IMG/VR virus record: IMGVR_UViG_2563366797_000003
Length of the DNA stretch: 40,813 nucleotides
Strand: one strand, 5' to 3'
Source of the DNA: a virus
Taxonomy: Duplodnaviria; Heunggongvirae; Uroviricota; Caudoviricetes
Translations under genes and position numbers: made by a program
Notes under the pieces: model-generated
What the model saw: the letters and a program-made list of their open reading frames with translations, nothing else
Told to the model about the DNA's origin: nothing
Databases searched by the model: none
Shown here: in pieces, positions 35,115-35,972 of the stretch
How the letters are laid out: the number at the start of each line of letters is the position of its first letter
Position numbering within the stretch: position 1 is the first letter of the stretch

Positions 35115-35126
35115 TGAGGTGGGGCC

Positions 35127-35471
35127 GTGAGACATTTACTTTGCACTGTTACCGTGTTCGCGGTGCTTATATCAGCACCCGCTTTTGCGGATCAGCAATG
35201 TGGTGATTTTAAAATCCATTGGGCAGATGATGGCTTAGCCAGAATCAATGGCGCAAAGCCAGAAATGCAAAAAATCACCTTCCTGAAAAACAAAGGCGAT
35301 TATAACAATATCAAGATGGATTGGCGTATGGCTACCGATCAGCCTGGAAGATGGGTTGGTCTTGAGTACATCAATCGAAACGGCAAGATAATTCTCAATG
35401 CCCAGTGGCTGCAAGCCAGCATGAATGCGCCGCGTCAGTATGCAACATACGACTGCCGAAAAGTAAAATAG
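35127..35471 (+). CDS. Hypothetical secreted (periplasmic) protein; cargo gene inside the tail module
   Basis: GTG start with a GAGGTGG RBS; signal peptide MRHLLCTVTVFAVLISAPAFA then mature DQQCGDF... with two Cys; followed by an AT-rich intergenic region. Confidence 0.5.
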   Translation: MRHLLCTVTVFAVLISAPAFADQQCGDFKIHWADDGLARINGAKPEMQKITFLKNKGDYNNIKMDWRMATDQPGRWVGLEYINRNGKIILNAQWLQASMNAPRQYATYDCRKVK

Positions 35472-35489
35472 CCCGCCAGATAGGCGGGC
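35461..35489 (-). terminator. Hairpin terminator between the convergent cargo genes
   Basis: gcccgcc-agata-ggcgggc at 35471-35489, followed on the minus strand by TATTTTACTT; overlaps the stop of 35127..35471. Confidence 0.45.
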
Positions 35490-35494
35490 ATGCG

Positions 35495-35785
35495 TCAAAA
35501 ATATTGAGCTTTAATTATAATAAACACAATAATTACGAACAGGATGTTTCTAATTATTTTTTGCTTATGAGTAAGTTGTTTTTTTTCTGTCGATTTCCCG
35601 GGAGAGTAAAGGTTAGTGGTATGCGACAGCCCCGTGCCGGGAAGGCCATTTGTCATCTTTACGCCTTTTTTCCCGATGTTAATGGTGGAACCTTTACCAC
35701 CAATTGAAGTGCTTACTCCGCTTTTACTAATGTTGATCGCGAGTCCGGGCGCAATCCGGATTCTTTTACGAAATCTAAATCCCAT
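35495..35785 (-). CDS. Hypothetical membrane-anchored protein with a DUF4236-like N-terminus; cargo gene
   Basis: 96 aa; MGFRFRKRIRIAPGLAINISKSGVSTSIGGKGSTINIGKKG... Gly/Ser/basic repeat N-terminus and a C-terminal TM anchor (IIRNILFVIIVFIIIKAQYF); opposite strand to all flanking tail genes; AT-rich surroundings. Confidence 0.5.
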   Translation of the reverse strand: MGFRFRKRIRIAPGLAINISKSGVSTSIGGKGSTINIGKKGVKMTNGLPGTGLSHTTNLYSPGKSTEKKQLTHKQKIIRNILFVIIVFIIIKAQYF

Positions 35786-35972
35786 TTGTTACTCCTGTAG
35801 TCAATAATGCGATGGTGCAGGTCCACTCTATGGCGGCTTCATGGCTGAAATTGATTTTCAATGCTTACTTGTTGCAAACATATCCTAATACACCTTGTGA
35901 ATGTGTGCCATTGCAGCGGAAAAGCCTTACTTCACACTGATGTGGCTTAGTTACTAAGAGATAATTGATACC

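What the first reader, a model, noticed from the sequence alone, without database searches (positions are those of the whole stretch)
35115..35800. Convergent two-gene cargo island in an AT-rich insert inside the tail gene cluster
Between the baseplate hub-like gene and the baseplate spike gene the collinear run of + strand tail genes is interrupted by a signal-peptide protein (35127-35471, two Cys in the mature part) and a minus-strand gene (35495-35785) with a DUF4236-like Gly/Ser/basic N-terminus and a C-terminal membrane anchor. The two genes converge on a shared hairpin, and the surrounding DNA is markedly AT-rich compared with the tail genes, consistent with horizontal acquisition. Opposite-strand genes embedded in a late operon are typical of lysogenic-conversion or defence cargo expressed from the prophage.
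Basis: partly seen in the sequence, partly recalled or inferred. Interest (0 to 1): 0.6.

Follow-up and report, generated by a model that had tools for sequence, protein, structure and literature searches.

The report
Tail-operon cargo slot holding a DUF4236 gene
In an E. coli prophage, a swappable cargo slot between two baseplate genes holds a small membrane-protein gene of unknown function (DUF4236), while the secreted-protein gene beside it is a fixed part of the tail operon rather than cargo; this is an ordinary kind of prophage add-on, but the family is untested.

Summary
Both ORFs, the signal peptide, the two cysteines, the DUF4236 match, the C-terminal helix, the shared hairpin and the AT-richness are all present.

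The window is a SEN34-like (Brunovirus-like) temperate myovirus prophage of E. coli.

The signal-peptide gene (35127-35471) is not polymorphic cargo:
- It follows the baseplate hub gene in 80 of 80 viral contigs and in nearly all related genomes.
- In relatives its start overlaps the hub stop by 4 nt or follows within a few nt.
- It encodes an exported, avidin-like eight-stranded beta-barrel.

The real cargo site lies between its stop codon and a conserved terminator hairpin (35973-35992) just upstream of the spike gene:
- The slot is empty (62 bp) in two species.
- Elsewhere it holds Phd/Doc, a SNIPE/PD-Lambda-1 homologue, PDC-S42, an EACC1 protein and at least six other cassettes.
- DUF4236 occupies it in 17 of 75 viral contigs and 19 of 53 E. 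coli prophages.

The DUF4236 gene (35495-35785, minus strand) fits a moron. It has low GC and its own terminator, and it recombines independently of its flanks. Related genes lie in other phages' tail clusters.

Its function is untested. My best guess is an inner-membrane superinfection-exclusion protein.

The parts
34050..35114 (+). Baseplate hub gene (354 aa). It is the left anchor of the locus.
   Evidence: phrog_196 'baseplate hub' E 5e-84; Pfam E217_GP41 E 6.6e-6. Found directly upstream of every signal-peptide-gene homologue (80/80).
35127..35471 (+). Conserved exported-protein gene ('SP', phrog_3443, 114 aa). The signal peptide is roughly 35127-35189. The mature part is an eight-stranded beta-barrel with invariant Cys25 and Cys110.
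35461..35489 (-). Intrinsic-terminator-like hairpin shared by the two convergent genes. The stem-loop is 35471-35489. The T-tract (35461-35470) runs into the last codons of the SP gene.
   Evidence: 7 G-C pairs, loop of 5, tail TATTTTACTT. Other minus-strand cassettes in this slot bring their own hairpin to the same place (L003/L004, L025, L037).
35472..35972 (.). Variable cargo slot, here filled by the DUF4236 cassette of about 500 bp.
   Evidence: SP stop to spike start measures 62 bp (L008, L021) to 1.8 kb (L012) in relatives. The 536-bp query 35472-36007 (cassette plus the conserved terminator) is 96-100% identical in 17 of the 19 E. coli genomes that carry it (91-93% in the other two), including genomes whose wider hub-to-spike region is only ~92% identical. 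GC is 0.416.
35495..35785 (-). DUF4236 gene (96 aa). The N-terminal DUF4236 beta-meander is about 35621-35779, followed by a Ser/Lys-rich linker and a C-terminal membrane helix at about 35501-35569.
   Evidence: Pfam PF14020 E 1.8e-20. AlphaFold2 pLDDT 81, six strands (residues 6-60) plus a helix at 73-95. Alignment A2 shows the same domain-linker-hydrophobic-tail layout in 46 homologues.
35786..35972 (-). Upstream region and leader of the DUF4236 gene. It has an AGGAG ribosome-binding site at 35792-35796 and a ~30-nt block shared with a Leclercia cassette. No confident promoter was found.
   Evidence: shared block GCCGCCATAGAGTGGACCTGCACCATCGCA. (no minus-strand sigma-70 match of 9/12 or better). 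(no significant RNA fold, z = 0.12).
35973..35999 (+). Conserved intrinsic terminator (AAACCAGC-TTCG-GCTGGTTT plus T7) directly upstream of the spike ribosome-binding site. It is the right border of the cargo slot.
   Evidence: Present in all 22 loci compared, including those with empty slots. 98.7% of cells are paired and 2 pairs carry compensatory changes (window C-G to A-U; L007 C-G to G-C). 1 of 500 shuffles reaches this, and slid controls pair at 57% or less.
36008..36748 (+). Baseplate spike gene (gpV-type, 246 aa). It is the right anchor of the locus.
   Evidence: Spike N-terminal domain E 8.9e-42 and GpV Apex motif E 3.5e-8. TIGR01644.

Best explanation
The locus has two layers.

(1) Fixed gene. 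The signal-peptide gene is a fixed member of the late tail operon of SEN34-like temperate myoviruses of Enterobacterales. It is read together with the hub gene. Its product is exported by the Sec pathway to the periplasm as a disulfide-stapled, avidin-like eight-stranded beta-barrel.

(2) Cargo hotspot. A recombinational cargo slot lies between that gene's stop codon and a conserved intrinsic terminator just upstream of the spike gene. In this prophage the slot holds one moron: a minus-strand DUF4236 gene with its own ribosome-binding site and its own terminator. The terminator's T-tract is built into the last codons of the signal-peptide gene.

Shown:
- the gene layout, conservation and polymorphism;
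- the base composition;
- both terminators;
- the domain architecture.

Inferred:
- Q-antiterminated late transcription reads through both hairpins.
- In the lysogen the conserved terminator insulates the spike and downstream genes from cargo transcription.
- Cassettes are swapped by homologous recombination in the flanking hub/SP and spike genes.

Inferred, with low confidence:
- Like HK97 gp15, it acts as a prophage-expressed superinfection-exclusion protein that interferes with genome entry at the inner membrane.
- The exported barrel binds a periplasmic ligand or an incoming tail-tip component.
For: Identity of the phage: 100% match to an E. coli PEC422 prophage with lambdoid Q and a myovirus tail. 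The named relative is Salmonella phage SEN34.

Fixed signal-peptide (SP) gene:
- The hub lies directly upstream in 80/80 IMG/VR contigs, and the spike lies downstream in 75/75 contigs long enough to tell.
- It is present in 20 of the 21 genome and E. coli loci where the position can be read (absent only in L010), while hub identity falls to 53-65%.
- It is present in Klebsiella phage RCIP0034 at 39% identity and in SEN34, where the start is mis-annotated.
- Hub-to-SP spacing is -4 to +12 nt.
- Lipoprotein-fused variants exist in L007 and L016.

Hotspot:
- The slot measures 62 bp to 1.8 kb.
- Occupants include Phd/Doc, an EACC1 protein, a ClpP-like protein, DUF4282 and a T5orf172 protein, PD-Lambda-1 at E 2.8e-82 and PDC-S42 at E 1.7e-36.
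- PD-Lambda-1 is SNIPE, a membrane nuclease that cuts DNA during injection (PMC13190303).
- Census of 75 viral contigs: DUF4236 17, EACC1 8, a 106-aa ORF 8, a 128-aa ORF 7, others 19, unassigned 16.

Mobility of the cassette:
- An identical DUF4236 protein is paired with SP alleles of 62-99% identity and spike alleles of 66-100%.
- The cassette is 99.8% identical where the wider region is 92% identical.
- A 59%-identical gene with a shared 5' leader sits in a lambda-like TMP-gpM junction.

Moron features: low GC and its own terminator.

Conserved slot terminator with covariation.

Topology: basic residues precede the C-terminal helix. In Vibrio/Photobacterium homologues the order is DUF4236 - transmembrane segment - SH3_3.

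Analogy: HK97 gp15 is a tail-operon moron encoding a small inner-membrane exclusion protein (PMC3594210). DUF4236 genes occupy the same TAC-TMP position in another phage.
Against: - No sigma-70 consensus promoter (9/12 or better) was found upstream of the DUF4236 gene, and there are no expression data. Expression from the lysogen is therefore assumed, not shown.
- Neither protein matches PADLOC, and no paper describes DUF4236.
- DUF4236 domains also occur in large phages of 137-357 kb (Klebsiella, Brevundimonas) that are probably not temperate, and in bacterial chromosomes outside prophages. The domain therefore has no single dedicated prophage role.
- The hydrophobic core of the C-terminal segment is only about 11-15 residues, which is short for a membrane helix.
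- The convergent SP/DUF4236 pair recurs in E. coli, Klebsiella and Hafnia. This could mean a functional link that the independent-cargo reading understates.
Confidence: 0.6

Rival explanations
1. Both genes form one horizontally acquired two-gene cargo island, with a secreted protein and a membrane protein working together as a lysogenic-conversion or defence pair.
For: - Both genes are AT-rich relative to the tail genes.
- They converge on one hairpin.
- The same convergent pair is seen in Klebsiella and Hafnia phages with diverged sequences.
Against: - SP occurs without DUF4236 in 58 of 75 viral contigs and in every non-E. coli species-representative locus.
- SP persists when the slot is empty (L008, L021).
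- DUF4236 occurs without SP in lambda-like tail modules.
- An identical DUF4236 protein is combined with SP alleles of only 62-75% identity.
Confidence: 0.07
2. The DUF4236 protein is a membrane-active toxin, abortive-infection effector, or holin-like or lysis-timing factor, rather than an entry blocker. Its role would be to kill or permeabilise the cell on a phage cue, or to tune lysis of its own phage.
For: - It is a small single-pass membrane protein encoded as a solitary cassette.
- Neighbouring occupants of the slot include toxin-antitoxin pairs and EACC1 (effector-associated) proteins.
- DUF4236 also occurs in large phages of 137-357 kb that are probably not temperate, where a prophage-protection role makes less sense.
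Against: - No antitoxin-like partner is present in the cassette.
- No PADLOC match.
- The phage already has two holins, a GH19 endolysin and spanins elsewhere.
- The minus-strand orientation argues against co-regulation with late lysis genes.
Confidence: 0.15
3. The DUF4236 gene is a long-standing, functionally tail-linked accessory of this module, for example acting on DNA ejection or tail-tip biology of its own phage. On this view it has been lost in many lineages rather than being free-floating cargo.
For: - DUF4236 genes recur next to tail-tip genes in at least eight independent contexts and four tail architectures.
- DUF4236 is the most frequent single occupant of this slot: 17 of 75 viral contigs and 19 of 53 E. 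coli prophages.
Against: - Most related, apparently intact tail modules lack it, including the plaque-forming phage SEN34.
- Similarity does not follow the tail type. The Leclercia lambda-like copy is as close to the window's copy (56-59%) as the Klebsiella and Hafnia copies in the same slot (49-58%).
- It lies on the opposite strand to the late operon.
Confidence: 0.1
4. The signal-peptide protein is a Spackle-like, Llp-like or Cor-like exclusion factor, or an inhibitor of the phage's own tape-measure lytic transglycosylase. It would be made late to protect the infected cell or its progeny. This rival concerns only the fixed gene.
For: - It is exported and disulfide-bonded, and has lipoprotein-anchored variants.
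- It is co-transcribed with tail-tip genes. The tape-measure protein carries an SLT domain.
- Several SP alleles reassort among near-identical hub and spike genes, differing mainly in the first beta-hairpin.
- Small beta-barrels are a common inhibitor or immunity fold (for example BtaiB).
Against: - No match to Ivy, MliC, PliC or any Pfam, NCBIfam or PADLOC family.
- The best, though weak, similarity is to avidins.
Confidence: 0.25

Closest known systems
Moron elements in phage tail operons, prototype HK97 gene 15 (Juhala/Hendrix 2000; Cumby et al. 2012; reviewed in PMC3594210)
   Same: - Extra DNA that is absent from close relatives.
- Lower GC than the flanks.
- Its own terminator.
- Located inside the tail operon.
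- Encodes a small inner-membrane protein.
- A DUF4236 homologue even occupies the TAC-TMP position of gp15 in another phage.
   Different: - No sequence relationship to gp15/YebO. Pfam finds only DUF4236.
- It is anchored at the C-terminus, not the N-terminus.
- It is on the opposite strand.
- No promoter was identified, and no exclusion phenotype has been tested.
Defence and accessory-gene hotspots of temperate phages (P2/P4 hotspots; prophage accessory loci such as those carrying Tab, BstA or SNIPE/PD-Lambda-1)
   Same: - A fixed position between conserved core genes.
- Many mutually exclusive cassettes, including a validated defence system (a PD-Lambda-1/SNIPE homologue in L014), a PADLOC candidate (PDC-S42) and Phd/Doc.
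- Cassettes reassort independently of their flanks.
   Different: - A different phage lineage (SEN34-like, Brunovirus-like).
- The slot lies inside the baseplate gene block, bounded by a conserved exported-protein gene and a conserved intrinsic terminator.
- I found no paper describing this slot.
Pfam PF14020 (DUF4236)
   Same: Full-length domain match (profile positions 1-54 of 55, E 1.8e-20), at the extreme N-terminus as in the rest of the family.
   Different: The family has no assigned function. This subgroup is the minimal form: domain, linker and one C-terminal helix.
Avidin/streptavidin-type (calycin) beta-barrels, for the signal-peptide protein
   Same: - Secreted eight-stranded up-and-down barrel of about 90-120 residues with one disulfide.
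- SP residues 64-98 (strands 6-7 and the end of strand 5) align with avidin 68-101. SP W66, W76 and W94 fall on the avidin columns W70, F79 and W97.
   Different: - The Pfam Avidin model does not hit at E 0.1 or better.
- Only 34 columns align (hhalign probability 70%).
- The N-terminal biotin-contact residues are not aligned.
- The disulfide links the first and last strands, not avidin's Cys4-Cys83.
- Biotin binding is untested.

Membership tests
Moron (independent transcription unit added to a phage genome) | Extra DNA absent from otherwise collinear relatives | tested here: met
   The slot is 62 bp in L008 and L021, against 536 bp here. The cassette is present in 19 of 53 related E. coli prophages and 17 of 75 viral contigs.
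Moron (independent transcription unit added to a phage genome) | Base composition different from the neighbouring genes | tested here: met
   DUF4236 gene: GC 0.392, GC3 0.39. Hub and spike: GC 0.54 and 0.58, GC3 0.62-0.63.
Moron (independent transcription unit added to a phage genome) | Own terminator | tested here: met
   Minus-strand hairpin 35489-35471 with 7 G-C pairs followed by a T-tract. Analogous hairpins follow the DUF4236 genes of L025, L037, L042 and L048.
Moron (independent transcription unit added to a phage genome) | Own promoter, with expression from the repressed prophage | tested here: inconclusive
   No minus-strand sigma-70 match of 9/12 or better in 35786-36007. A conserved leader block and an AGGAG site are present. 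Expression cannot be tested with these tools.
Pfam DUF4236 (PF14020) | Score above the curated gathering threshold over the whole domain | tested here: met
   73.6 bits against a cut-off of 27; residues 3-55 on profile positions 1-54 of 55.
Known anti-phage defence systems (PADLOC-DB v2) | Match to any defence-protein model | tested here: not met
   No family at E 1 or better for either protein.
Type II toxin-antitoxin pair | Two co-transcribed cytoplasmic partners that always occur together | tested here: not met
   The genes are convergent. One product is exported. Each occurs widely without the other.
HK97 gp15/YebO-type superinfection-exclusion proteins | Sequence homology to gp15/YebO | not tested
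   No direct comparison was run. Pfam and NCBIfam scans return only DUF4236. The resemblance is positional and architectural only.
HK97 gp15/YebO-type superinfection-exclusion proteins | Blocks genome entry of superinfecting phage when expressed from the prophage | not testable with these tools
   Needs plating, adsorption and DNA-entry assays.
Virion structural (baseplate) protein, for the signal-peptide gene | Conserved synteny within the tail module | tested here: met
   80/80 with the hub upstream and 75/75 with the spike downstream.
Virion structural (baseplate) protein, for the signal-peptide gene | Cytoplasmic protein incorporated into particles | tested here: inconclusive
   A Sec-type signal peptide is present in all 43 aligned homologues, and a lipoprotein signal is present in the L007 and L016 fusions. 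Both argue for export. No virion proteomics are available; the SEN34 paper reports none.
Avidin family, for the signal-peptide protein | Eight-stranded barrel with avidin-like sequence signature and biotin-contact residues | tested here: inconclusive
- hmmsearch E 0.0064 with no single stretch significant.
- hhalign probability 69.7% over 34 columns covering three aromatic pocket positions.
- No Pfam Avidin hit.
- N-terminal contact residues are not aligned.
Periplasmic lysozyme/transglycosylase inhibitors (Ivy, MliC/PliC, PliG) | Family HMM match or specific fold match | tested here: not met

The most novel reading that the evidence does not exclude
Minimal DUF4236 proteins (an N-terminal cytoplasmic beta-meander plus a C-terminal membrane anchor) may be a large, unrecognised class of tail-operon morons that block phage genome entry at the inner membrane. 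DUF4236 as a whole has 8,801 representatives at 50% identity and no literature.

Separately, the SEN34-like hub-spike slot, bounded by a fixed periplasmic avidin-like barrel gene and a conserved terminator, may be a previously undescribed defence hotspot. Its many unannotated cassettes would then be candidate new defence or exclusion genes.
Probability: 0.25. Interest if true: 0.6.

Novelty: new member of a known kind. Interest (0 to 1): 0.35.

Why it matters
Tail-operon morons and prophage defence hotspots are established ideas, so the finding does not change how we think about prophages. It does provide three usable leads.

- A sharply bounded hotspot. The slot is easy to search for: hub gene, exported-barrel gene, slot, conserved terminator, spike gene. 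It occurs in a common family of Enterobacterales prophages. It already contains a SNIPE/PD-Lambda-1 homologue, PDC-S42 and Phd/Doc, together with at least six unannotated cassette types. These make a ready shortlist for defence-gene discovery.

- A first functional context for DUF4236. This large orphan domain family now has a reproducible setting: small membrane-anchored forms that sit repeatedly among tail-tip genes of unrelated tail types. That makes a superinfection-exclusion hypothesis directly testable with one 291-bp clone.

- A conserved exported protein encoded inside a baseplate gene block. This is unusual enough to merit a knockout.

Tried and rejected
- PADLOC scan of both proteins: no match. 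NCBIfam: no match.
- Literature searches for DUF4236, PF14020 and IPR025330: nothing relevant. The PF14020 hits are Plasmodium gene identifiers.
- Foldseek against BFVD with the SP model: no hit at E 0.001 or better. The afdb50 library was not available.
- Profile searches of the PDB: nothing for DUF4236.
- Rfam scan of 35000-36200: only sub-threshold hits (isrK 22.5 bits against a gathering score of 50; Trp leader 23 against 41), driven by the terminator hairpin.
- RNA folding of the DUF4236 leader: no better than shuffled sequence (z = 0.12).
- Sigma-70 promoter scan: no minus-strand candidate. The plus-strand match at 34984-35012, inside the hub gene, is no more than chance (2 found, 1.8 expected).
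- Toxin-antitoxin pair reading: rejected because of the export signal and the independent distribution of the two genes.
- Co-divergence of DUF4236 with the tail module: rejected. A copy from a lambda-like module is as similar as copies from the same slot, and identical cassettes are paired with diverged flanks.
- The overlapping plus-strand ORFs (35405-35707, 35616-35807, 35812-35940) were not pursued. The minus-strand frame carries the Pfam match and the conserved family.
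Full report
**What the window is.** The 2.1-kb stretch around the finding is 100% identical to a chromosomal prophage of E. coli PEC422, and 53 of 5,426 complete E. coli genomes carry a related stretch. The PEC422 annotation shows a lambdoid Q antiterminator and a lysis cassette. These are followed by a myovirus morphogenesis block: DUF3383-type sheath, tube, chaperones, an SLT-bearing tape-measure protein, a Dit-like protein, a plug, a hub, then the two genes in question, a gpV spike, a sheath initiator, gpJ, a wedge protein, fibres and an invertase. 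Pfam and PHROGs confirm the flanking genes as Dit-like, Pam3_gp18 plug, E217_gp41-like hub (phrog_196, E 5e-84) and spike with Apex motif. The closest named phage is Salmonella phage SEN34 (Brunovirus), a temperate myovirus with lambda-like early genes.

**Check of the observation.**
- The ORFs lie at 35127-35471 (+) and 35495-35785 (-).
- The plus-strand protein starts MRHLLCTVTVFAVLISAPAFA|DQQCG. In an alignment of 43 homologues the N-terminal 20-28 residues are unconserved but always hydrophobic and end in A-x-A-like motifs. Conservation starts exactly at the predicted cleavage site, and Cys25 and Cys110 are invariant.
- The minus-strand protein matches DUF4236 at E 1.8e-20. AlphaFold2 models it as six beta-strands (residues 6-60), a linker and a helix at residues 73-95 (pLDDT 81).
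- The genes converge on a seven-pair all-G-C hairpin at 35471-35489. On the minus strand it is followed by a T-tract.
- The region 35115-36007 has GC 0.434, in the lowest 1.5% of same-size windows. GC3 is 0.47 and 0.39, against 0.62-0.63 for hub and spike.

**The signal-peptide gene is fixed, not cargo.**
- A hub-based scan of one genome per species returned 21 loci from Escherichia, Shimwellia, Pantoea, Enterobacter, Rahnella, Yersinia, Serratia, Erwinia, Kosakonia, Phytobacter and Trabulsiella.
- A homologue of the signal-peptide protein lies directly after the hub in every one of these loci where the position can be read, except L010. Its identity falls to 41% as hub identity falls to 53-65%.
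- An independent scan of IMG/VR that started from the signal-peptide protein gave 80 contigs. The hub is directly upstream in 80/80, and the spike is downstream in all 75 contigs long enough to tell.
- The gene is present in SEN34, where its start is mis-annotated, and in Klebsiella phage RCIP0034 at 39% identity.
- It remains when the downstream slot is empty (L008, L021).
- It is packed against the hub gene: 12 nt with a GAGGTGGGG ribosome-binding site in the window, 1-4 nt in L002, L032 and L033, and a 4-nt overlap in L025, L031 and L034. It is therefore read with the late tail operon.
- In L007 and L016 the same domain is fused behind a roughly 200-residue lipoprotein domain (lipoboxes LVTGC and IVAGC). 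In L010 a related 379-residue lipoprotein replaces it. This supports an envelope location.
- Its GC is 0.42-0.50, below the flanks (0.52-0.57) in all lineages examined except Yersinia L009. This would fit an ancient acquisition that became fixed.

**What the exported protein looks like.** AlphaFold2 gives a confident eight-stranded up-and-down barrel (pLDDT 82; about 90 outside the signal peptide).
- A profile of the family hits avidin weakly in the PDB (E 0.0064). In that alignment SP W66, W76 and W94 fall on the avidin columns W70, F79 and W97.
- The Pfam Avidin model does not hit, the N-terminal half is not aligned, and BFVD gives nothing.
- I therefore call it an avidin-like (calycin-type) periplasmic barrel with an unknown ligand, not an avidin.
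- Several SP alleles (99%, 84%, 72%, 69% and 62-68% identity) are combined with hubs and spikes of 95% identity or more. In the alignment the differences appear concentrated in the signal peptide and the first beta-hairpin.

**The real cargo site.** The distance from the SP stop codon to the spike start ranges from 62 bp (L008, L021) to 1.8 kb (L012).
- The right border is a conserved intrinsic terminator directly upstream of the spike ribosome-binding site. The consensus is AACCCGC-TTCG-GCGGGTT followed by T6-7. In the window it is AAACCAGC-TTCG-GCTGGTTT-T7 at 35973-35999.
- It is present in all 22 loci compared, including the empty ones.
- 98.7% of cells are paired, and two pairs carry compensatory changes. 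Only 1 of 500 shuffles reaches this, and slid registers pair at 57% or less.
- Klebsiella phage RCIP0034 is the one relative examined that lacks it.

Occupants of the slot include:
- Phd/Doc (L002, L009);
- an EACC1-domain protein on the minus strand (L003 by Pfam; homologues in L004, L022 and Hafnia phage yong1 by similarity);
- a ClpP-like protein, DUF4282 and a Mu-F-like fragment;
- a T5orf172 protein matching PD-Lambda-1 at E 2.8e-82 (L014), and PDC-S42 at E 1.7e-36 (L012).

PD-Lambda-1 has since been characterised as SNIPE, an inner-membrane nuclease that cuts phage DNA during injection (PMC13190303).

Among the 75 viral contigs the occupants are: DUF4236 17, EACC1-like 8, a 106-aa ORF 8, a 128-aa signal-peptide ORF 7, a 145-aa ORF 4, Phd/Doc 3, Doc-like 4, a two-gene pair seen in L016/L019/L024 4, another pair 2, a 210-aa ORF 2, and unassigned 16. 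All slot contents examined are AT-rich (0.36-0.46). Among complete E. coli genomes the DUF4236 cassette is found in 19, the EACC1 cassette in 12 and Phd/Doc in 5. Strain E89 has two such prophages with different cassettes.

**The DUF4236 cassette behaves as a mobile moron.**
- The 536-bp query 35472-36007 (cassette plus terminator) is 96-100% identical in 17 of the 19 E. coli carriers (91-93% in the other two). This includes WEM25 and GPEC60-12-649, where it is 99.8% identical but the 2.1-kb region is only 92.4-92.5% identical.
- Among viral contigs, a 100%-identical DUF4236 protein is paired with SP alleles of 62-99% identity and spike alleles of 66-100%. Exchange by homologous recombination in the flanks is the simplest reading. 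No integrase or flanking repeats are involved.
- The cassette brings its own terminator. The T-tract is provided by A-rich synonymous codons at the end of the SP gene (AAA GTA AAA TAG here, against AAG GTG AAG TAG in L003).
- Upstream of the ATG there is an AGGAG site. There is also a roughly 30-nt block shared with a Leclercia cassette, and the motif TTGACTACAGGAG shared with the Klebsiella cassette.
- I found no confident promoter, no Rfam family and no significant RNA fold.

**DUF4236 genes recur in tail gene clusters.** Look-ups of homologues (42-59% identity to the window's protein) gave these contexts.
- The same slot, on the opposite strand, in Klebsiella (P0094, P0107, phage RCIP0034) and Hafnia (P0087).
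- The TMP-gpM junction of a lambda-like tail in Leclercia.
- The gpK-gpJ interval of a lambda-like tail in Pseudomonas syringae.
- The chaperone-TMP interval of a siphovirus. This is the position of the HK97 gp15 moron.
- About 1.5 kb upstream of the TMP gene in Acinetobacter phage Ab11510-phi.
- A 401-aa DUF4236-TM2 protein two genes after the hub in Pasteurella phage Pmp3.

Three look-ups were not in phage tail modules. The domain also occurs in large Klebsiella and Brevundimonas phages of 137-357 kb. Similarity does not follow the tail type, so the gene moves between modules.

The family is large: 8,801 representatives at 50% identity with E 0.001 or better. The domain is almost always at residue 1 of proteins of 80-360 aa.

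**Topology.** Basic residues precede the C-terminal helix. In Vibrio and Photobacterium the order is DUF4236, transmembrane segment, SH3_3. One homologue carries a cytoplasmic FtsK-gamma domain instead. Together these place the DUF4236 domain in the cytoplasm.

**Mechanism.**
- Shown: the layout, the conservation and polymorphism, the composition, both terminators and the domain architecture.
- Inferred: late, Q-antiterminated transcription crosses both hairpins. In the lysogen the conserved terminator shields the spike and downstream genes from cargo transcription.
- Low confidence (about 0.3): the DUF4236 protein is a prophage-expressed inner-membrane superinfection-exclusion factor. This rests on analogy with HK97 gp15 (PMC3594210), on the tail-cluster context, and on the company it keeps in the slot.
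- The main rivals are a membrane toxin or abortive-infection role, and a role tied to the phage's own tail.
- For the exported barrel I favour a periplasmic binder of a ligand or of an incoming tail-tip component, also at low confidence.

**Verdict.** This is a new member of a known kind: a tail-operon moron in a prophage cargo hotspot. The finding is of modest interest. Its useful by-products are a sharply bounded hotspot and a first reproducible context for an orphan domain family.

Noticed in passing
L040 (Leclercia), L044 (P. syringae), L048 (metagenome), L026 (Acinetobacter phage Ab11510-phi), L027 (Pasteurella phage Pmp3), L025/L035/L037/L042 (Klebsiella, Hafnia): Small DUF4236 genes recur among tail-tip genes of unrelated tail types. 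Positions seen are TMP-gpM, gpK-gpJ, chaperone-TMP (the HK97 gp15 position) and after the hub. This suggests a family-wide link to tail operons.
   Followed up: partly
window 35973-35999; the same position in L002-L024: An intrinsic terminator sits in the middle of the baseplate gene block, directly upstream of the spike ribosome-binding site. It is conserved across genera with compensatory stem changes, and it is present even where the cargo slot is empty.
   Followed up: yes
L007:7099-7989, L016:7075-7941, L010:7068-8207: In Enterobacter and Phytobacter the exported barrel is fused behind a roughly 200-residue lipoprotein domain with no Pfam match. In a Serratia locus a related 379-residue lipoprotein replaces the barrel altogether.
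   Followed up: partly
L011:7464-8380, L013:7438-8210, L020:7468-8375; L016:8025-9186, L019:7477-8630, L024:7057-8206: Two recurrent unannotated two-gene cassettes occupy the same slot. One pairs a ~149-aa protein with a 108-156-aa coiled-coil protein that has a C-terminal anchor. The other pairs a ~250-aa protein with a ~130-165-aa helical protein. Neither has a meaningful Pfam or PADLOC match (only weak coiled-coil hits for the first pair). Both are candidate new conflict systems.
   Followed up: partly
window 15656-16430: A second AT-rich patch lies just downstream of the Q antiterminator gene (14870-15652). It contains a 189-aa ORF (15856-16425, +) with hydrophobic segments. This is the classic lambdoid moron position. 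The PEC422 relative has a tRNA-Asn and an HNH endonuclease there instead.
   Followed up: no
window 6400-7400: A third AT-rich patch lies between a 1,129-aa gene (2835-6224, -) and a CI-like repressor (7377-8069, -). It contains only short ORFs.
   Followed up: no
window 38960-40813; L001:24749-29006: The tail-fibre and fibre-assembly genes are followed by a Hin/Gin-type recombinase (from 40220, +). This suggests an invertible host-range segment. In PEC422 an IS3 element has inserted into this region.
   Followed up: no
L029:4069-4412 (Salmonella phage SEN34, SEN34_20): The annotated start of SEN34_20 removes the signal peptide. The ORF extends upstream to a TTG start and then encodes a full signal-peptide homologue.
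   Followed up: yes
NZ_CP121157.1 (E. coli E89), around 2837688 and 3285675: One genome carries two prophages of this family with different cassettes in the slot, EACC1-like and DUF4236.
   Followed up: no
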